Shown here in pieces: positions 166 to 7,921 of a DNA stretch of 8,357 nucleotides. Each line of letters starts with the position of its first letter. Position 1 is the stretch's first letter. The notes beneath the pieces were generated by a model. It saw nothing but the letters and a program-made list of their open reading frames with translations. It made no database searches and was not told where the DNA came from. Origin of the DNA: a virus (taxonomy: Duplodnaviria > Heunggongvirae > Uroviricota > Caudoviricetes). A program made the translations under genes and the position numbers. The stretch lies in the IMG/VR virus record IMGVR_UViG_3300029068_000009; one strand, given 5' to 3'.

Positions 166-1509
166 GTGTCGTTACGTGAGCAGGCCCGTTACCTTGATAA
201 CAACCACGATCTGGTCATTGGTGTATTTGACAAGCTGGAAGAACGGGTGGTGGGGAAAAATGGGATTATTGTCGAGCCACATCCGGTATTACGCAATGGT
301 GCCATTGCCCGTGACCTGGCAGCGGAGATACGTACCCGATGGAGTGAATGGTCTGTCAGTCCGGAAGTCACCGGGCAGTTTACCCGTCCGATGCTGGAAC
401 GTCTGATGCTGCGTACCTGGCTGCGCGATGGTGAGGTGTTTGCCCAGATGGTTTCCGGGCGCATAAACAGCCTGACGCCTTCTGCCGGTGTTCATTTCTG
501 GCTGGAGGCGCTCGAGCCGGACTTTATTCCCATGACCAGTGATGAGAGCAACAGGCTGAATCAGGGCGTGTTTGTTGATGACTGGGGGCGTCCCGAAAAA
601 TATCTGGTGTATAAAAGTCGTCCTGTATCCAGACGGCAGATGGAAACCAAAGAAGTGGATGCAGAGCGAATGCTGCATCTTAAATTTGTTCGCCGTCTGC
701 ACCAGATGCGCGGGACGTCTTTATTGTCCGGTGTGCTGATCCGCCTCAGCGCCCTGAAAGAGTATGAAGATTCTGAGCTGACTGCAGCAAGGATCGCCGC
801 TGCTCTGGGGATGTACATCCGGAAAGGCGACGGACAGAGCTATGAAACGGATGGTAATGACAGCAAGGAGAACGAACGCGAGCTTACCATTCAGCCAGGC
901 ATTATTTACGACGATCTGAAACCCGGCGAAGAAATCGGAATGGTGAAGTCGGATCGTCCCAATCCTAACCTTGAAACTTTTCGTAATGGTCAGTTGCGTG
1001 CCGTGGCGGCGGGCAGTCGTCTGAGTTTTTCCAGTACGGCACGCAACTATAACGGCACTTACAGCGCCCAGCGTCAGGAACTGGTTGAGTCTACTGATGG
1101 CTACCTGATCCTGCAGGACTGGTTTATTGGTGCCGTCACCCGCCCGATGTATCGTGCCTGGCTGAAACAGGCTGTGGCATCCGGTGTTATCAGGCTACCC
1201 CGCGATCTTGACCGTTCTTCACTGTATACCGCGGTGTATTCCGGACCAGTGATGCCGTGGATTGACCCTGTTAAGGAGGCTGAGGCCTGGAAAATCCAGA
1301 TTCGTGGTGGAGCGGCGACAGAATCAGACTGGGTACGTGCTGGTGGTCGTAATCCGGATGATGTCAAACGTCGGCGCAAGGCCGAAATTGATGAAAACCG
1401 CAAGCTGGATCTGGTATTTGATACCGATCCGGCCAGTGATAAAGGAGGCAGCAGTGCCGCAACGAAACGACAGGAGCCGCAGCACACCGACGACCAGTCC
1501 GAAGAATAA
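166..1509 (+). CDS. Phage portal protein, lambda gpB family; 5' end uncertain
   Basis: 447-codon ORF immediately upstream of the protease/capsid gene, the usual portal position. Central segment GQLRAVAAGSRLSFSSTARNYNGTYSAQRQ resembles a lambda gpB segment as I recall it. First in-frame start is GTG at 166 with no obvious Shine-Dalgarno; the frame is open back to 43 (in-frame TGA at 40-42) with no ATG/GTG/TTG in between. Confidence 0.8.
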   Translation: MSLREQARYLDNNHDLVIGVFDKLEERVVGKNGIIVEPHPVLRNGAIARDLAAEIRTRWSEWSVSPEVTGQFTRPMLERLMLRTWLRDGEVFAQMVSGRINSLTPSAGVHFWLEALEPDFIPMTSDESNRLNQGVFVDDWGRPEKYLVYKSRPVSRRQMETKEVDAERMLHLKFVRRLHQMRGTSLLSGVLIRLSALKEYEDSELTAARIAAALGMYIRKGDGQSYETDGNDSKENERELTIQPGIIYDDLKPGEEIGMVKSDRPNPNLETFRNGQLRAVAAGSRLSFSSTARNYNGTYSAQRQELVESTDGYLILQDWFIGAVTRPMYRAWLKQAVASGVIRLPRDLDRSSLYTAVYSGPVMPWIDPVKEAEAWKIQIRGGAATESDWVRAGGRNPDDVKRRRKAEIDENRKLDLVFDTDPASDKGGSSAATKRQEPQHTDDQSEE

Positions 1510-3481
1510 TTCCTGGTTCAGGATGCAGGCTGGTCACCAGAGTGACGCGGATATTTATATTTATGACGAGATTGGTTTCTGGGGTGTTACAGCGAAGCAG
1601 TTTATCAGTGATCTGAATGCACTGGGCGATATCACCCACATTAATCTCCATATTAATTCACCGGGTGGCGATGTCTTTGAAGGCATCGCCATTTTTAATG
1701 CGCTGAAAACACATGGTGCGTCCATTACCGTTTATGTCGACGGTGTGGCGGCGTCAATGGCGTCGGTCATTGCGATGGTGGGAAACCCGGTCATTATGCC
1801 GGAAAACACTTTCATGATGATTCATAAACCATTTGGCTTTACGGGCGGTGATGCGGAGGACATGCGCACCTATGCCGACCTGCTCGATAAAGTTGAGGCG
1901 GTTCTGTTACCCGCTTATGCACAGAAAACCGGGAAAACCACCGATGAAATTGCTGCCATGCTGGCGGATGAGACCTGGATGTCCGGTGCCGAATGTCTGG
2001 CACATGGATTTGCTGATCAGGTAACGCCAGCCGTTAAGGCAATGGCATGTATTCAGTCAAAACGTACAGAGGAATTTAAAAAGATGCCGGAATCCATTCG
2101 AAACATGATTACTCCGCCACGCAACAGTGCTCCACGCGTACAGGATGATGAACCTGCAGCCTCCCGGACGCCAGTGCAGGCAGCAGCACCCGTGGTGGAT
2201 GAAAACAGTATCCGTGCGCAGGTACTGGCAGAGCAAAAAGCGCGTGTAAACGGTATTAATGATCTGTTTGCCATGTTTGGCGGGCGTTATCAGACGCTGC
2301 AGGCTCAGTGTCTTGCCGATCCTGAATGTTCGCTGGAGCAGGCCCGCGAAAAGCTGTTGAACGAGATGGGGCGCGAGTCCACGCCATCCAATAAAAATAC
2401 CCCGGCTCATATTTATGCCGGTAACGGTAATTTTGTGGGGGACGGGATCCGCCAGGCGCTGATGGCGCGTGCCGGATTTGAAAAAACCGAACGTGATAAT
2501 GTCTACAACGGGATGACCCTGCGTGAATATGCCCGTATGTCACTGACTGAACGGGGTATTGGGGTTTCCAGTTATAACCCGATGCAGATGGTCGGTGCGG
2601 CGTTCACACACAGTACGTCTGACTTCGGTAATATTCTGCTGGATGTTGCGAACAAAGCCATTCTGCAGGGCTGGGAAGATGCTCCTGAAACCTATGAACA
2701 GTGGACGCGGAAAGGTCAGTTGTCTGATTTTAAAATTGCCCATCGTGTGGGTATGGGGGGCTTCAGTGCTCTGCGTCAGGTGCGTGAAGGGGCGGAATAT
2801 AAATACGTCACCACCGGAGATAAACAGGCCACTATTGCACTGGCGACCTATGGCGAGCTGTTCAGTATCACCCGTCAGGCCATTATCAATGATGATCTGA
2901 ATATGCTGACCGATGTCCCGATGAAGCTGGGCCGTGCGGCGAAATCCACCATTGCCGATCTGGTTTATGCCATTCTGACGTCTAACCCGAAAATCTCCAC
3001 AGATAATGTAAGTCTGTTCGATAAAGCGAAACATGCAAACGTACTGGAGAGCGCTGCAATGGACGTGGCATCGCTGGATAAAGCCCGCCAGTTGATGCGC
3101 GTTCAGAAAGAGGGGGAGCGTCATCTGAATATTCGTCCTGCGTTCGTACTGGTACCGACGGCGATGGAGTCTGTTGCTAACCAGGTCATTCGCTCCTCAA
3201 GTGTCAAGGGGGCTGACATTAACGCCGGTATTATTAACCCGGTGAAAGATTTTGCGACCGTTATTGCAGAGCCTCGTCTTGATGATAACAGCCAGACCAC
3301 CTTCTACCTGGCTGCGTCCAAAGGCTCCGATACGATTGAAGTGGCTTATCTCAACGGTGTGGATACGCCATATATTGATCAGATGGAGGGCTTCAGTGTG
3401 GATGGCGTGACAACGAAAGTGCGTATTGACGCCGGTGTCGCGCCAGTTGATCACCGCGGTCTGGTGAAATGTACGGCGTAA
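1454..3481 (+). CDS. Tripartite head protein: ClpP-family (S14) prohead protease + scaffold-like linker + major capsid domain
   Basis: One uninterrupted ORF. N-terminal domain carries ClpP hallmarks: INSPGG; GVAASMAS with the putative catalytic Ser codon TCA at 1754-1756; MMIHKP with the His codon CAT at 1823-1825; a downstream acidic residue in LADETW. A middle charged/Ala-Gln-rich segment looks scaffold-like, and a C-terminal domain of about 400 aa sits where the major capsid protein belongs. Start chosen at GTG 1454, which has AGGAGG at 1443-1448 (5-nt spacer) and overlaps the portal 3' end by 56 nt; alternative start ATG 1523 has a weak RBS. Confidence 0.85.
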   Translation: MPQRNDRSRSTPTTSPKNNSWFRMQAGHQSDADIYIYDEIGFWGVTAKQFISDLNALGDITHINLHINSPGGDVFEGIAIFNALKTHGASITVYVDGVAASMASVIAMVGNPVIMPENTFMMIHKPFGFTGGDAEDMRTYADLLDKVEAVLLPAYAQKTGKTTDEIAAMLADETWMSGAECLAHGFADQVTPAVKAMACIQSKRTEEFKKMPESIRNMITPPRNSAPRVQDDEPAASRTPVQAAAPVVDENSIRAQVLAEQKARVNGINDLFAMFGGRYQTLQAQCLADPECSLEQAREKLLNEMGRESTPSNKNTPAHIYAGNGNFVGDGIRQALMARAGFEKTERDNVYNGMTLREYARMSLTERGIGVSSYNPMQMVGAAFTHSTSDFGNILLDVANKAILQGWEDAPETYEQWTRKGQLSDFKIAHRVGMGGFSALRQVREGAEYKYVTTGDKQATIALATYGELFSITRQAIINDDLNMLTDVPMKLGRAAKSTIADLVYAILTSNPKISTDNVSLFDKAKHANVLESAAMDVASLDKARQLMRVQKEGERHLNIRPAFVLVPTAMESVANQVIRSSSVKGADINAGIINPVKDFATVIAEPRLDDNSQTTFYLAASKGSDTIEVAYLNGVDTPYIDQMEGFSVDGVTTKVRIDAGVAPVDHRGLVKCTA

Positions 3482-3567: not shown

Positions 3568-3891
3568 ATGGCAAAGAATTTTGTAGAAGAAGGAAAAACG
3601 GTGGCGATTGTTGCCAGTGCAGCCATCAGCAGCGGAGATCTGGTGCAGGTGGGTGATGTTTTTGCGGTGGCGCTGACCGATATTCCACAGGGTGAAACAG
3701 GCGACGGCATGACCGAAGGTGTGTTTATCCTGCCTAAACTGAAAACGGATGACATGAAAACGGGTAAGAAGGTTTATCTGAAGTCCGGAAAAGTTCAGCT
3801 GACTAACAGCGGCTCTGATCCGCTGGTCGGGGTTGTCTGGGCAGATGCCGGAACCAGTGCAGAAGAAGTGCCGGTAAAACTCAATGTCTGA
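3568..3891 (+). CDS. Small head protein, putative capsid decoration/cement protein (DUF2190-like)
   Basis: 107-aa ORF directly after the capsid gene. ATG 3568 is preceded by GGAG (3558-3561). Gly/Val-rich small beta-type protein; assignment is by position and general resemblance, not verified. The TTG at 3523 in the ORF track lies inside the T-tract and was not used. Confidence 0.55.
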   Translation: MAKNFVEEGKTVAIVASAAISSGDLVQVGDVFAVALTDIPQGETGDGMTEGVFILPKLKTDDMKTGKKVYLKSGKVQLTNSGSDPLVGVVWADAGTSAEEVPVKLNV

Positions 3892-4159
3892 TCCCTTTTC
3901 CCGGCTGGCAGCGCGTATGGATGCGATCACGGTCAGAAAGATGGGAAAGACAGCCTCGATTAATGATGTCGATATGGCTGTGATCCCGGGCGAAACACTG
4001 GCAGAGCTGAATGCTCTGTCCGGACCTGCGGTCTCTCTGGTGGTGTTTTCTTCGGGATACCGCCCACGGCGCGGGGATCGCGTTGTTTATGACGGACAAC
4101 AATGGACGGTCACACGGCATGAACGTTTTAACGGTAAGCCAATGATCTTTATTGAGTAA
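3884..4159 (+). CDS. Putative head-tail joining / head completion protein (positional analogue of lambda FII)
   Basis: 91-aa ORF whose ATG (3884-3886) overlaps the upstream stop (TGA 3889-3891) by 8 nt, indicating translational coupling. Sits between head genes and gpZ; function inferred from position and size only. Confidence 0.5.
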   Translation: MSDPFSRLAARMDAITVRKMGKTASINDVDMAVIPGETLAELNALSGPAVSLVVFSSGYRPRRGDRVVYDGQQWTVTRHERFNGKPMIFIE

Positions 4160-5147: not shown

Positions 5148-5158
5148 AGGAGGTGGCA

Positions 5159-5902
5159 ATGACCACACCAAATCCACTGGCAAAAACGAAAGGTGCGGGA
5201 ACGACGTTCTGGATGTACACCGGCAAGGGCGATGCGTTTGCGAACCCTTTATCGGACACTGACTGGCTGCGTCTTGCGATGGTGAAGGATCTGCAACCTG
5301 GCGAAATGACCGCTGATGCAGAAGATGACTCTTATCTCGATGATGAAGATGCAGACTGGAAAACGACAACCCAGGGGCAGAAATCCGTCGGTGATACTTC
5401 GGCGACGCTGGCCTGGCGTCCGGGTGACAGCGGGCAGAAAAAACTGGTTCAGTTGTTCGACTCCGGTGAAGTCTGCGCGTTTCGTATCAAATATCCCAAC
5501 GGCACTGTTGATGTTTTCCGTGGCTGGCTGAGCTCACTGGGTAAAACCATTGCCTCAAAAGACGTGATGACCCGCACAGTGAAAATCAGCGGTGTGGGGC
5601 GTCCGTATCTGGCAGAGGAAGGCACTGAAACAGTGAGCGTTACCGGGCTGACGGTGGCACCGGCATCTGCCAGTGTAAAAGTGGGAGCAACCACCACGCT
5701 GACCTTTACAGTAAAACCTGACGGAGCCAGTGACAAAGCGATCAGTGTGCATTCGACAGATCCACAGACTGCCACGGTGACCCTGAACGGGCTTGTGGCC
5801 ACGGTGAAAGGCGTGAAGCAGGGCAGTGTCAGCATTGTGGGCATGACTTCTGACGGCGATTTTGTGGCAGTGGCTGCGGTGGCTGTCAGCGCCGCAGGTT
5901 AA
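5159..5902 (+). CDS. V: Major tail tube protein, lambda gpV homologue, with C-terminal Ig-like domain
   Basis: Strong similarity to lambda gpV throughout: KGAGTT, ANPLSD, YLDDEDADW, GQGQKS, GDTS, LAW, PNGTVDVFRGW, TRTVK, GVGRP. ATG 5159 is preceded by GGAGG (5149-5153). C-terminal residues from about 161 form an Ig-like (Big_2-type) beta domain. Confidence 0.95.
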   Translation: MTTPNPLAKTKGAGTTFWMYTGKGDAFANPLSDTDWLRLAMVKDLQPGEMTADAEDDSYLDDEDADWKTTTQGQKSVGDTSATLAWRPGDSGQKKLVQLFDSGEVCAFRIKYPNGTVDVFRGWLSSLGKTIASKDVMTRTVKISGVGRPYLAEEGTETVSVTGLTVAPASASVKVGATTTLTFTVKPDGASDKAISVHSTDPQTATVTLNGLVATVKGVKQGSVSIVGMTSDGDFVAVAAVAVSAAG

Positions 5903-5922
5903 CAGGACGATACTCATCATTT

Positions 5923-5946
5923 GCCCCGGTTATCCGGGGCTTTTTT
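5923..5946 (+). terminator. Intrinsic (rho-independent) terminator between V and G
   Basis: Perfect 7-bp GC-rich stem, GCCCCGG (5923-5929) pairing with CCGGGGC (5934-5940), loop TTAT, followed by T6 (5941-5946). Lies 21 nt after the V stop. Confidence 0.7.
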
Positions 5947-5962
5947 GCAGGTGGAGAACATG

Positions 5963-6349
5963 ATGTTTCTGAAACAGGGCACGTTTAATTATGAAAAGCA
6001 GTCCGTGGTGCTCAGTGAGCTGTCCGGGCTGCAGAGAATTGAATATCTGGCGTTTGTTCAGCAGCGAACGGCAAAGTTTGATGCCGAAGAGGGAGAACTG
6101 CCGGAGGCTGAACGACAGATTGCTTTTCTGCGGATGGGGATGGATATCAATGCCTGGCTGGTTTCCCGCTCACTGTGGAATGCGGAACAGTCTCAGGATG
6201 TTGAGACGCTTTGCGCATCCGTTATTACAACATGGTCGTATGATGCCCTGGGAGCGGGGGCGGAGATGGTTCTGTCGCTGAGCGGTATGGGAGCCATTGA
6301 GAATGCCGGGGATTTGGAGCATGAGGTGCTGACGCCGGAAAAGTCCTGA
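5963..6349 (+). CDS. G: Tail assembly chaperone, lambda gpG homologue
   Basis: Starts MFLKQG as lambda gpG starts MFLK, and contains LSELSGLQRIEYLAF resembling lambda G LSELSALQRIEHLAL. ATG 5963 is preceded by GGAG (5953-5956). The TTG start at 5921 in the ORF track lies inside the terminator hairpin and was rejected. Confidence 0.85.
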   Translation: MFLKQGTFNYEKQSVVLSELSGLQRIEYLAFVQQRTAKFDAEEGELPEAERQIAFLRMGMDINAWLVSRSLWNAEQSQDVETLCASVITTWSYDALGAGAEMVLSLSGMGAIENAGDLEHEVLTPEKS

Positions 6350-6678
6350 CGCGGGAAATGCAGTTTGTCATGCGGCTTGCCCGGGAGTTCCGGCGGGCAG
6401 ACTGGCGGCGGATGCTGTCGGAAATGTCGGCCACTGAGCTTGGTGAGTGGGGCGATTATTTCCGGATGCAGAGCTTCAGTGATGTGTGGATGGATGCGCA
6501 GTTTGCCTCGCTGAAGGCATTGATCGTGAGAATGGTGTCCGGTAGCAGTGATGCTGCGGTGGCTGATTTCAGCCTTTTACCGGAAGAGAACGGGATACCG
6601 GAGCGAACGGACGAAGAACTGATGCATCTTGGGGAAGGTATTTCCGGAGGTGTGCGTTATGGACCAGACATCCGGTAA
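5963..6678 (+). CDS. T: gpGT tail assembly chaperone fusion made by programmed -1 ribosomal frameshift from G into the T frame
   Basis: The T ORF is in the -1 frame relative to G, opens at 6325 (after the T-frame TGA at 6322-6324) and overlaps the last 25 nt of G. This is the same arrangement as lambda G/T. Putative slip site G GAA AAG at 6337-6343. T-frame stop TAA at 6676-6678. Confidence 0.75.
6337..6343 (+). other. Putative -1 frameshift slippery heptamer G GAA AAG
   Basis: It is the only A-rich slippery-type sequence inside the 22-nt window (6325-6346) where both the G and T frames are open. It differs by one base from the lambda heptamer G GGA AAG. Confidence 0.55.
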
Positions 6679-7921
6679 GAAAAAAACACGCGAACCCCGT
6701 AATGATGAGGCCACCCGGTTATTGCTGCAGTACAGTCAGCAACAGGCACAGGTGGAAGGACAGATTGCTGCTGCCAGACAGTCAGCAGGCATTGCCACGG
6801 AAAGGATGACAGAAGCGCATAAACAGCTTCTGGCTCTGCAGCAGCGCATCAGCGACCTGGACGGGAAAAAACTGACGGCAGATGAAAAGAGTGTGCTGGC
6901 CCGTAAAGATGAACTGATTCAGGCACTGACGCTGCTGGATGTAAAACAGCAGGAGCTTCAGAAACAGACGGCACTCAACGAGCTGAAGAAAAAAACAATT
7001 CAGCTGACCAGTCAACTGGCTGAAGAAGAGCGCGCTCAGCGTCAGCAACATGACCTGGATATCGCCACGGTGGGTATGGGTGATCAGCAGCGGCAGCGAT
7101 ATCAGGTACAACTGAGTCTTCGCCAGAAATACCAGCAACAGCTGGAGCAGTTGAGGCGGGATAGTGAGCAGAAAGGAACATATAACACGGATGACTACAG
7201 AAAGGCCGAGCAGGCGCTGACGGAGAGCCTGAACCGACAACTGAATGAGAATCGCCGTTACTGGCAACAGCTTGAAGTTGTGCAGGGTAACTGGAAAAAC
7301 GGAGTCCTGCGTGCATTTCAGGATTTTACCGTGGATGCAGATAATACGGCAGGAACAGCAGAACAGGTGTTCTCGTCAGCCTTCAGCAACATGGGAAATG
7401 GCCTGGCAACTTTTGTCACTACCGGCAAACTCAATTTCAAATCCTTCACCTCTTCTGTGCTGTCAGATATGGCGAAAATCCTGGCGCAGGCAACCATGAT
7501 GAAATCGATAAAAGGGATTGGCAGTGTACTGGGATTTGATCTCAGCAGCCTTTCCCTGAATGCCAATGGGGGGATTTATCAGTCTGCTGATTTGAGTCGT
7601 TACAGTGGCACGGTGGTTAACCGTCCGACGTTTTTTGCTTTTGCAAAAGGCGCGGGTGTGATGGGGGAAGCGGGACCTGAAGCCATTCTGCCTCTGCGTC
7701 GTGGTGCTGACGGTAAGCTGGGGGTTGTGGCGGATATTGGTGGTTCAGGTATGGCGATGTTTGCCCCGCAGTACAACATCGAGATCAATAACGATGGCAC
7801 GAACGGGCAGATAGGTCCGGCTGCCCTGAAGGTGGTTTATGACCTTGGGAAAAAAGCGGCAGCGGACTTTATGCAACAGCAGGCCCGTGATGGTGGTCGG
7901 TTAAGTGGAGCATATCGGTAA
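6659..7921 (+). CDS. H: Tail tape measure protein, lambda gpH homologue, short (420 aa)
   Basis: ATG 6659 is preceded by GGAGG (6646-6650) and overlaps the T ORF end as in lambda. N-terminal part is Gln/Glu/Arg-rich and coiled-coil-like. The C-terminal part matches the lambda gpH C-terminus, including INNDGTNGQIGPAALK (VYD) and a final RDGG motif. Stop TAA 7919-7921 shares one base with the M start. Confidence 0.85.
   Translation: MDQTSGKKKTREPRNDEATRLLLQYSQQQAQVEGQIAAARQSAGIATERMTEAHKQLLALQQRISDLDGKKLTADEKSVLARKDELIQALTLLDVKQQELQKQTALNELKKKTIQLTSQLAEEERAQRQQHDLDIATVGMGDQQRQRYQVQLSLRQKYQQQLEQLRRDSEQKGTYNTDDYRKAEQALTESLNRQLNENRRYWQQLEVVQGNWKNGVLRAFQDFTVDADNTAGTAEQVFSSAFSNMGNGLATFVTTGKLNFKSFTSSVLSDMAKILAQATMMKSIKGIGSVLGFDLSSLSLNANGGIYQSADLSRYSGTVVNRPTFFAFAKGAGVMGEAGPEAILPLRRGADGKLGVVADIGGSGMAMFAPQYNIEINNDGTNGQIGPAALKVVYDLGKKAAADFMQQQARDGGRLSGAYR

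What the first reader, a model, noticed from the sequence alone, without database searches (positions are those of the whole stretch)
6325..6346. G-T frameshift site is a single-base variant of the lambda heptamer
The two stop codons (T-frame TGA 6322-6324, G-frame TGA 6347-6349) confine any -1 frameshift to 22 nt. The only slippery-type sequence there is G GAA AAG (6337-6343), where lambda has G GGA AAG. The A-site lysine codon AAG to AAA slip is preserved, but the P-site codon is GAA (Glu), which would re-pair with GGA only through a middle-position G-U wobble. This predicts either lower frameshift efficiency, and so a different G:GT ratio, or a single-tRNA lysine slip mechanism.
Basis: partly seen in the sequence, partly recalled or inferred. 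Interest (0 to 1): 0.45.

Follow-up and report, generated by a model that had tools for sequence, protein, structure and literature searches.

The report
Phage tail chaperone G-T frameshift site
This is the ordinary programmed -1 ribosomal frameshift site that makes the G-T tail-assembly chaperone fusion of a lambda-like E. coli phage; its G GAA AAG heptamer is the commonest form in this gene family and is already annotated in phage N15, so it is not an oddity.

Summary
G (5960-6349) and the -1-frame T reading frame (open 6325-6678) overlap by 22 nt, bounded by TGA 6322-6324 and TGA 6347-6349. The only in-frame shift-prone motif there is G GAA AAG (6337-6343).

The window is a mEp460/cdtI/Ayreon-type lambdoid phage, and G and T match Pfam PF06894 and PF06223. 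Across 150 related loci T is always in the -1 frame. Every locus carries G GNA AAR at the homologous spot, and the overlap windows intersect on just the heptamer plus 3 nt.

Of 31 sequence clusters, 25 use G GAA AAG and only 3 use lambda's G GGA AAG. The "variant" is therefore the family norm.

GenBank already marks GGAAAAG as the -1 slippery sequence in phage N15 and phage LLS.

The first heptamer base is G in 31/31 clusters, although it is the third base of a codon for varying amino acids. That argues for P-site tRNA-Glu re-pairing (a two-tRNA slip) rather than a pure lysine-tRNA slip.

I found no conserved stimulatory structure and no family-wide SD-like stimulator. Published in vitro work treats G GAA AAG as less slippery than G GGA AAG; efficiency in vivo is unmeasured. 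Low novelty.

The parts
5950..5957 (+). Shine-Dalgarno-like GGTGGAGA ahead of the G start codon
   Evidence: Read directly from the sequence; lies 2 nt before ATG 5960. Inferred function.
5960..6349 (+). Gene G, tail assembly chaperone: 129 aa, 14.4 kDa, stop TGA 6347-6349
   Evidence: Translation; Pfam PF06894 Phage_TAC_2 E=1.8e-39; phrog_42 E=1e-51; mass.
6322..6324 (+). TGA stop in the -1 (T) frame, the 5' limit of any productive -1 shift
6323..6328 (+). SD-like GAGGTG, 8 nt upstream of the heptamer; a candidate upstream stimulator that is not conserved in the family
   Evidence: Anti-SD duplex energy -9.2 kcal/mol; only 5% of control windows in G genes reach this. The family as a whole does not differ from background (Mann-Whitney p=0.25) and sister phages have GAGGCG.
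6325..6346 (+). 22-nt G/T overlap in which the -1 shift must occur
   Evidence: Across the family the overlaps (13-160 nt) intersect on the heptamer plus 3 nt upstream.
6337..6343 (+). Shift heptamer G GAA AAG (P-site codon GAA, A-site codon AAG; -1 frame GGA AAA)
   Evidence: Same heptamer at the homologous position in 25 of 31 clusters; G GNA AAR in 31/31. Annotated as the slippery sequence in N15 (AF064539) and LLS (PQ299149).
6343..6678 (+). T segment read in the -1 frame after the shift (G6343 re-read as the first base of GTC Val), ending at TAA 6676-6678. GT fusion is 239 aa, 27.0 kDa
   Evidence: Translation; Pfam PF06223 Phage_tail_T E=4.7e-15; phrog_39 E=2.3e-42. The fused-GT profile phrog_32165 matches G at profile positions 1-119 and T at 136-251.
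6358..6360 (+). ATG in the T frame, used as the T start in GenBank/RefSeq records; probably not a real start
   Evidence: Annotated as the T start in mEp460 and RefSeq. The residue is Leu or Arg in the other 30 clusters. No well-spaced SD (GGGAA abuts the ATG; read).

Best explanation
Ribosomes translating the tail-assembly chaperone gene G reach CCG GAA AAG (6335-6343). Most read on through UCC and terminate at UGA 6347-6349, giving the 129-aa G protein.

A minority slip one base backwards while tRNA-Glu sits on GAA (P site) and tRNA-Lys on AAG (A site). tRNA-Lys re-pairs perfectly with AAA. tRNA-Glu re-pairs with GGA, keeping its first-position G:C and third-position A:U pairs and accepting a central G.U.

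Translation then continues in the -1 frame from GUC (Val) through T to TAA 6676-6678, producing a 239-aa, 27-kDa G-T fusion. By homology with lambda gpG/gpGT, the G part binds the tape-measure protein H. The rare T part recruits the major tail protein V, and neither ends up in the virion.

Shown here: the frames, the confinement of the shift, the family membership and the conservation of the motif. Inferred: that shifting occurs, its efficiency (probably a few percent or less) and the two-tRNA mechanism.
For: 1. Domain identity and gene order. G matches PF06894 and T matches PF06223. The gene order is V (5153-5902, PF16461), G, T, then H (6659-, tape-measure domains).

2. T is in the -1 frame relative to G in 150/150 related loci.

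3. Every locus has an in-frame G GNA AAR at the aligned position. The intersection of all overlap windows is the heptamer plus 3 nt.

4. Heptamer positions 1, 2, 4, 5 and 6 are invariant in 31 clusters. Position 1 is the third base of a codon encoding P, A, L, V, T or M (CCG, GCG, CTG, TTG, GTG, ACG, ATG). The third positions of the three preceding codons are near-random (information 0.02-0.23 bits). G3 usage for those amino acids elsewhere in G is 0.30-0.54, giving about 1e-12 if lineages were independent. All three P-site tRNAs used in the family (Glu, Gly, Ala) have C36, which would pair with that G after the slip. This last point is established tRNA knowledge, not tested here.

5. Public records annotate the same heptamer in N15 and LLS, the latter with a joined CDS.

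6. Literature. Lambda G GGA AAG shifts about 4%, and the ratio matters for infection (PMC3296357; PMC5009743). The G.S to A.S change at the A-site wobble favours the -1 frame by about 2.9 kJ/mol (PMC6787027). GAA->GGA re-pairing via G.U has been noted for the G GGG GAA sites of actinobacteriophage tail chaperones (PMC10885494).
Against: No experiment on this sequence exists, so the product and the ratio are unobserved.

In a reconstituted E. coli system AUG GAA AAG gave mainly 0-frame product at all EF-G concentrations (PMC6924986). The A_AAG tetramer alone is barely above background in vivo without a stimulator: about 0.15%, against 5.6% with a strong pseudoknot (PMC4066793).

I found no conserved stimulator. 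Downstream folds are no better than shuffles (window z=+0.7 for +4..+63, z=-1.2 for 6344-6440; family mean z=-0.31; RNAalifold finds nothing). There is no Rfam frameshift element.

Two clusters use G GCA AAA, where the P-site tRNA-Ala could keep only the first-base pair. Full P-site re-pairing is therefore not obligatory in the family.

The invariance of base 1 comes from related sequences, and a cause other than P-site pairing cannot be excluded.

This particular copy has a 601-codon deletion in H, so the element may be defective.
Confidence: 0.85

Rival explanations
1. Single-tRNA slip. Only tRNA-Lys slips from AAG to AAA on the A_AAG tetramer, in the A site or in the P site while the next codon waits. 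tRNA-Glu does not re-pair, as at the hexanucleotide sites CGA_AAG of B. subtilis cdd and IS1222.
For: A_AAG is by far the shiftiest tetramer in E. coli (PMC4066793). NNA_AAG sites are used naturally (PMC5009743). [quoted passage not shown] Family members with G GCA AAA cannot re-pair the P-site tRNA well. Five clusters have a stop codon immediately 3' of the heptamer, which fits a P-site slip while the A site waits.
Against: It does not predict the invariant G at heptamer position 1 (31/31, across seven different codons), nor the invariant G at position 2, which lets the P-site codon be only GAA, GGA or GCA. Known tetramer and hexamer sites need strong stimulators, and none is conserved here.
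Confidence: 0.2
2. T is made on its own from ATG 6358, as GenBank and RefSeq annotate it, and no frameshift is needed.
For: An ATG exists at 6358, and databases annotate a separate 106-aa 'tail assembly protein T'.
Against: The Met is specific to this clade. The aligned residue is Leu or Arg in the other 30 clusters, including the nearest outgroups Gifsy-1, Gifsy-2 and Fels-1. No properly spaced SD precedes it. The T frame is open and conserved (xLxxE) from the heptamer onward in all loci, and its upstream stop can lie as close as 3-6 nt before the heptamer. PHROGs holds a fused-GT profile covering both halves.
Confidence: 0.05
3. The motif is a relic. This copy belongs to a defective element, and the heptamer has no current function in this particular sequence.
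For: The tape-measure gene H in the window lacks 1803 nt (601 codons) relative to all relatives, and the deletion also rewrites the last residues of T.
Against: The deletion is in frame and leaves G, the heptamer and the T Pfam domain intact. G-T (window 5900-6668) is 99.7% identical to the same region of phage Ayreon, isolated on E. coli K12. This rival concerns the biology of this copy, not what the site is.
Confidence: 0.05
4. The frame change is made by RNA polymerase slippage on the A run rather than by the ribosome.
For: The site contains AAAA.
Against: Four A's are far shorter than the homopolymer runs known to give transcriptional slippage (established knowledge; review PMC5009743). 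The conserved features are codon-phased (G GNA AAR in the 0 frame), which fits tRNA re-pairing.
Confidence: 0.01

Closest known systems
Bacteriophage lambda gpG/gpGT programmed -1 frameshift (G GGA AAG; Levin, Hendrix & Casjens 1993)
   Same: Homologous G and T domains (35% identity over GT; same Pfam families). Same gene order V-G-T-H. T is in the -1 frame. The slip-site Lys is aligned and invariant. No stimulatory structure is evident.
   Different: The P-site codon is GAA (Glu), not GGA (Gly). Re-pairing therefore has a central G.U instead of a third-position G.U. The overlap is 22 nt against 61 nt. The G stop lies 1 codon after the heptamer instead of 5.
Phage N15 genes 14/15 and phage LLS genes 11/12 (also phi80 and mEp237)
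   Same: Same protein family and the identical heptamer GGAAAAG at the homologous position. It is explicitly annotated as the -1 slippery sequence in AF064539 and PQ299149.
   Different: About 42-43% identity in T. The preceding codon is GCG or GTG rather than CCG. The G stop is 5 codons downstream. Some members of that subgroup have a possible CGCCAGY...RCUGGCG hairpin 4-5 nt after the heptamer, which is absent here.
Gifsy-1, Gifsy-2 and Fels-1 prophages of Salmonella
   Same: Nearest outgroups (66-70% nucleotide identity). Identical ACN CCG GAA AAG YCC TGA arrangement. Gifsy records already describe T as the frameshift half.
   Different: The upstream G tail and the position of the -1-frame stop differ (28-nt overlap). 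The T frame has no ATG at the position of 6358.
Hexanucleotide and tetranucleotide A_AAG sites (B. subtilis cdd A_CGA_AAG, IS1222 G_CGA_AAG)
   Same: An A-site AAG->AAA slip by tRNA-Lys, with a P-site codon that is not of the X_XX type (PMC5009743).
   Different: Those sites depend on SD-like or pseudoknot stimulators. Here none is conserved, and the base 5' of the P-site codon is under selection.
G_GA-type non-canonical heptamers (G GAU UUU of insect-specific flaviviruses, dianthoviruses and mesoniviruses; G GGG GAA of actinobacteriophage tail chaperones)
   Same: A GAN codon re-pairs with GGA through a central G.U (PMC5009743; PMC10885494).
   Different: Different tRNAs, hosts and ribosomes. 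In G GGG GAA the GAA codon is in the A site, not the P site.

Membership tests
Lambda-type G/GT tail assembly chaperone with programmed -1 frameshift | Upstream ORF homologous to gpG | tested here: met
   PF06894 E=1.8e-39, covering residues 2-115 of 129; phrog_42.
Lambda-type G/GT tail assembly chaperone with programmed -1 frameshift | Downstream segment homologous to gpT, in the -1 frame, overlapping the 3' end of G | tested here: met
   PF06223 E=4.7e-15; 22-nt overlap; -1 frame in 150/150 relatives.
Lambda-type G/GT tail assembly chaperone with programmed -1 frameshift | Located between the major tail protein gene and the tape-measure gene | tested here: met
   V-like ORF 5153-5902 (PF16461 plus Big_2) upstream; tape-measure ORF 6659-7921 (PF24622, PF09718) downstream.
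Lambda-type G/GT tail assembly chaperone with programmed -1 frameshift | Shift-prone heptamer inside the overlap at a conserved position | tested here: met
   G GAA AAG at 6337-6343; G GNA AAR in 31/31 clusters; overlap intersection is the heptamer plus 3 nt.
Lambda-type G/GT tail assembly chaperone with programmed -1 frameshift | T has no conserved initiation signal of its own | tested here: met
   The Met at 6358 is Leu or Arg in the other 30 clusters. For this clade alone, independent initiation cannot be formally excluded.
Lambda-type G/GT tail assembly chaperone with programmed -1 frameshift | GT fusion protein actually made, at a low fixed ratio to G (about 1:30 in lambda) | not testable with these tools
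   Needs a reporter assay, western blot or mass spectrometry.
Canonical tandem-slippage heptamer X_XXY_YYZ | The first three bases are identical, so that the P-site tRNA re-pairs with at most a wobble-position change | tested here: not met
   G GAA: the -1 codon GGA differs from GAA at the middle base (direct reading). It works like a tandem-slippage site, with near-cognate P-site re-pairing, but is not a strict X_XXY_YYZ.
Single-tRNA A_AAG (hexanucleotide) shift sites such as cdd and IS1222 | In-frame A_AAG | tested here: met
   A AAG at 6340-6343, in frame.
Single-tRNA A_AAG (hexanucleotide) shift sites such as cdd and IS1222 | No constraint on the base 5' of the P-site codon (no P-site re-pairing) | tested here: not met
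   That base is G in 31/31 clusters despite variable amino acids.
dnaX-type stimulated -1 frameshift cassette | Upstream SD-like stimulator at about 10 nt | tested here: inconclusive
   The window has GAGGTG (-9.2 kcal/mol, 8-nt gap, 5% tail of controls). It is not conserved: family against background p=0.25.
dnaX-type stimulated -1 frameshift cassette | Downstream stem-loop or pseudoknot 5-9 nt after the heptamer | tested here: not met
   Window z=+0.7 (+4..+63) and z=-1.2 (6344-6440); family mean z=-0.31; no RNAalifold consensus; no Rfam match. Pseudoknots were not searched explicitly.

The most novel reading that the evidence does not exclude
The heptamer that biochemists use as an 'unfavourable, one-tRNA' control (G GAA AAG) is the predominant natural G-T shift site of enterobacterial lambdoid phages. 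It occurs in prophages of about a third of complete E. coli genomes. If it reaches a lambda-like GT level in vivo, then either a central G.U is well tolerated in the P site during translocation, or an unrecognised stimulator exists. Both slipping tRNAs (Glu and Lys) carry mnm5s2U34, so the G:GT ratio of these phages could be even more sensitive to the host's tRNA thiolation state than lambda's.
Probability: 0.25. Interest if true: 0.4.

Novelty: already known. Interest (0 to 1): 0.2.

Why it matters
It matters little for discovery. The G-T frameshift is a textbook case, and this heptamer is already marked in the N15 and LLS records.

It has some practical value. All 17 closely matching phage records, and the one RefSeq E. 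coli record I opened, list G and T under separate product names. None of the four records I opened shows a joined CDS, and three of them give T its own start codon. The junction region occurs in 1,846 of 5,426 complete E. coli genomes.

For frameshifting specialists, the family survey gives a natural test set. It shows G GAA AAG and G GGA AAG interchanging during evolution, with an invariant first G, and this bears on how much P-site mispairing a tandem slip tolerates.

Tried and rejected
1. Downstream stimulatory structure. I folded 6344-6440 and 6300-6480. I also folded +4..+63 of 31 cluster representatives against dinucleotide shuffles and ran RNAalifold on the ungapped block. Nothing was significant or conserved for the window. 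The only structure predicted in the window starts immediately after the heptamer, too close to act as a stimulator. A possible hairpin exists only in the N15-like subgroup.

2. Upstream SD-like stimulator. Anti-SD duplex energies were compared with control windows in G genes. The window itself is in the 5% tail, but the family is not enriched, so this remains a lead only.

3. Rfam scan at a permissive E-value. Only chance-level hits, and no frameshift element.

4. Literature on this heptamer in tail chaperones. Full-text searches for GGAAAAG with frameshift, tail or slippery, and for 'G GAA AAG', found only Peng et al. 2019. Xu, Hendrix & Duda 2004 and Licznar et al. 2003 (which has NNA_AAG data) are not held. 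I therefore could not check whether they list or measure GAA_AAG.

5. A viral-contig scan returned only close relatives at 92-100% identity. Diversity came from genome contigs and from a protein search of phage records.

6. Transcriptional slippage and independent T initiation were considered and rejected (see rivals).

7. The other GGAAAAG copies in the window (3787 on +, 3895 and 4525 on -) are not in the slip phase of a gene.

Full report
**Observation.** The coordinates are exact.
- G runs from ATG 5960 to TGA 6347-6349 (129 aa).
- The -1 frame has TGA at 6322-6324 and is then open to TAA 6676-6678.
- The overlap is 6325-6346, 22 nt.
- In the G frame the last codons are GAG GTG CTG ACG CCG GAA AAG TCC TGA.
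- The only in-frame Z_ZZN or heptamer-type motif is G GAA AAG at 6337-6343.
- A -1 slip there gives ...TPEK|VLTREMQF..., a 239-aa, 27.0-kDa fusion.

Taken alone, the motif is not very improbable. Among 7-codon in-frame windows in this window's genes, 9% hold an in-frame A_AAR and 1.3% a G_GNA_AAR.

**What the locus is.** G matches Pfam PF06894 (lambda tail assembly chaperone G, E=1.8e-39). The -1-frame segment matches PF06223 (minor tail protein T, E=4.7e-15). A PHROGs profile of fused GT proteins matches G over its first half and T over its second.

The neighbours are lambda-type: portal, ClpP-protease/capsid fusion, cement protein, Z, U, V, then G, T, H and M. The DNA is 99.7% identical to phage Ayreon and 97.5-99.6% identical to mEp460, cdtI and 13 other E. 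coli phage records. The 161 nt around the site occur in 1,846 of 5,426 complete E. coli genomes.

All 17 phage records list G and T under separate product names. In the four records I opened:
- mEp460 and RefSeq strain A31 start T at the ATG corresponding to 6358.
- Ayreon starts T further downstream.
- Gifsy-1 starts T inside the overlap, upstream of that position, and describes it as made by translational frameshifting.
- None shows a joined CDS.

**Comparative test of the site.** I collected 155 related loci from IMG/VR, GTDB genomes and phage records. In each I located the G stop, the T frame and the overlap.
- T is in the -1 frame in 150 of 150 loci.
- Every locus has an in-frame G GNA AAR at the position that aligns with lambda's G GGA AAG. 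The junction Lys is an invariant column.
- The overlaps range from 13 to 160 nt. Their intersection is the heptamer plus the 3 nt before it.
- After clustering at 88% identity (31 clusters, down to about 35-40% protein identity), the heptamers are GGAAAAG 25, GGGAAAG 3, GGCAAAA 2 and GGGAAAA 1.
- A rough neighbour-joining tree puts the GGGAAAG lineages (lambda plus E. albertii, and Edwardsiella) and the GGGAAAA one (Providencia rustigianii) in separate places among GGAAAAG lineages.

**Already known.** The N15 GenBank record (AF064539) carries a misc_feature 'slippery sequence for -1 translational frameshift' whose coordinates are GGAAAAG. The LLS record (PQ299149) states 'minus-one programmed translational frameshift site GGAAAAG' and gives a joined CDS. 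phi80 has the same heptamer. The Gifsy-1 and Gifsy-2 records describe T as the frameshift half.

**Mechanism.** The family alignment bears on this choice.
- Heptamer base 1 is G in 31/31 clusters.
- It is the third base of a codon whose amino acid varies: Pro 9, Ala 12, Leu 7, Val 1, Thr 1, Met 1, across seven different codons.
- It lies upstream of the junction in the T frame, so neither protein constrains it.
- The third positions of the three preceding codons are close to random (0.02-0.23 bits).
- G3 usage for these amino acids elsewhere in G is 0.30-0.54. That gives about 1e-12 if lineages were independent, which overstates the significance because they are related.
- Base 2 is also invariantly G, and the P-site codon is only ever GAA, GGA or GCA. 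The tRNAs for these codons all have C36 (established tRNA knowledge).

After a -1 slip that C36 pairs with base 1. This is what a two-tRNA slip with near-cognate P-site re-pairing predicts (G:C, G.U, A:U for tRNA-Glu). A lysine-only slip does not predict it.

I therefore favour the tandem slip, at about 0.6 given that shifting occurs at all. The caveat is the G GCA AAA members, where the P-site tRNA can keep only that first pair. Five clusters place a stop codon directly after the heptamer, so a P-site lysine slip may contribute in those.

**Efficiency.** This cannot be computed. The published data are as follows.
- Lambda keeps the 0 frame about 96% of the time, and the ratio matters for infection (PMC3296357; PMC5009743).
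- In a reconstituted system AUG GAA AAG gave mainly 0-frame product, whereas AUG GGA AAG shifted strongly at low EF-G. EF-G domain-4 mutants raised shifting on both (PMC6924986).
- A_AAG alone is barely above background in vivo without a stimulator: about 0.15% averaged over the tetramers, against 5.6% with the IS3 pseudoknot (PMC4066793).
- The AAG->AAA change at the A-site wobble favours the -1 frame by about 2.9 kJ/mol. Second-position mismatches were not covered by that model (PMC6787027).

**Stimulators.** I found no conserved stimulator.
- Downstream folds are no better than shuffles: window z=+0.7 and z=-1.2, family mean z=-0.31, and no RNAalifold consensus.
- Rfam finds nothing.
- SD-like pairing upstream is not enriched across the family (p=0.25).
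- The window itself has GAGGTG 8 nt upstream at -9.2 kcal/mol, in the 5% tail of controls. Sister phages have GAGGCG.

**Independent T start.** The ATG at 6358 is specific to this clade. The aligned residue is Leu or Arg in the other 30 clusters, including Gifsy-1, Gifsy-2 and Fels-1. No properly spaced SD precedes it.

**Verdict.** This is an ordinary member of a well-known system with an already-annotated heptamer, so novelty is low.

The residual point of interest concerns a sequence treated in vitro as unfavourable that turns out to be the commonest natural G-T shift site in enterobacterial lambdoid phages. Both of its slipping tRNAs carry mnm5s2U34 (established knowledge; PMC3296357 links this modification to the lambda GT ratio), and that makes a simple set of reporter experiments worthwhile.

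**Aside.** The tape-measure gene next door carries a unique in-frame 601-codon deletion (see Noticed in passing).

Noticed in passing
window 6659-7921, junction at 6668|6669: The tape-measure gene H has an in-frame 1803-nt (601-codon) internal deletion relative to Ayreon, mEp460 and all other relatives. Window 5900-6668 matches Ayreon 8730-9498, and window 6669-8357 matches Ayreon 11302-12990. H is 420 aa instead of 1021 aa. The deletion starts 10 nt after the H ATG and also changes the T C-terminus (...YGPDSQPGH to ...YGPDIR). None of 87 related loci and none of 5,426 complete E. coli genomes has this junction. There is no clear microhomology at the breakpoints. By analogy with lambda H deletions it would predict a much shorter tail or a defective element; it could also be an assembly or construction artefact.
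   Followed up: partly
window 5923-5949: Strong terminator-like hairpin (GCCCCGG TTAT CCGGGGC followed by TTTTTT) in the V-G intergenic space. It is annotated as a rho-independent terminator in Ayreon and mEp460 and as a stem-loop in N15. It is plausibly an attenuator that lowers G/T/H expression relative to the major tail protein.
   Followed up: partly
window 3943-3949: A canonical lambda-type heptamer G GGA AAG lies in frame inside ORF 3884-4159 (Pfam PF13856, Gifsy-2 family). A -1 shift there would terminate after 4 codons, so it is probably incidental.
   Followed up: yes
L095, L097, L110, L125, L141 (genome-contig loci): Some family members have the G stop codon immediately after the shift site, with altered heptamers: CTG GCA AAA TAG (Kluyvera, Ewingella), ATG GGA AAA TAG (Providencia rustigianii) and CTG GAA AAG TAG (Providencia). 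These are 'shifty stop' arrangements in which P-site re-pairing is poor for GCA.
   Followed up: partly
L156 (N15), L096, L108, L116 and relatives, +4 to +38 after the heptamer: The N15-like subgroup can form a 7-bp hairpin CGCCAGY...RCUGGCG starting 4-5 nt after the heptamer. z is -2.2 to -2.7 in three clusters (L108, L116, L156) and -1.2 in L096. It is absent from the window and from lambda. Covariation was not tested.
   Followed up: no
L128-L134, L136-L140 (genome contigs): Lambda-identical G-T sequences (all with the same 39% match to the query) sit on short, low-coverage contigs of assemblies labelled Kitasatospora, Neobacillus, Oceanobacillus, Pseudomonas, Shewanella, Leeuwenhoekiella, Enterococcus and others. 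This is most likely lambda DNA contamination of those assemblies.
   Followed up: no
window 1262-3481: A single 739-aa ORF combines a ClpP-type protease domain with a major capsid domain (PF00574 plus PF25209). It overlaps the 3' end of the portal ORF 166-1509 by about 250 nt as listed, although the true start is probably further downstream.
   Followed up: no
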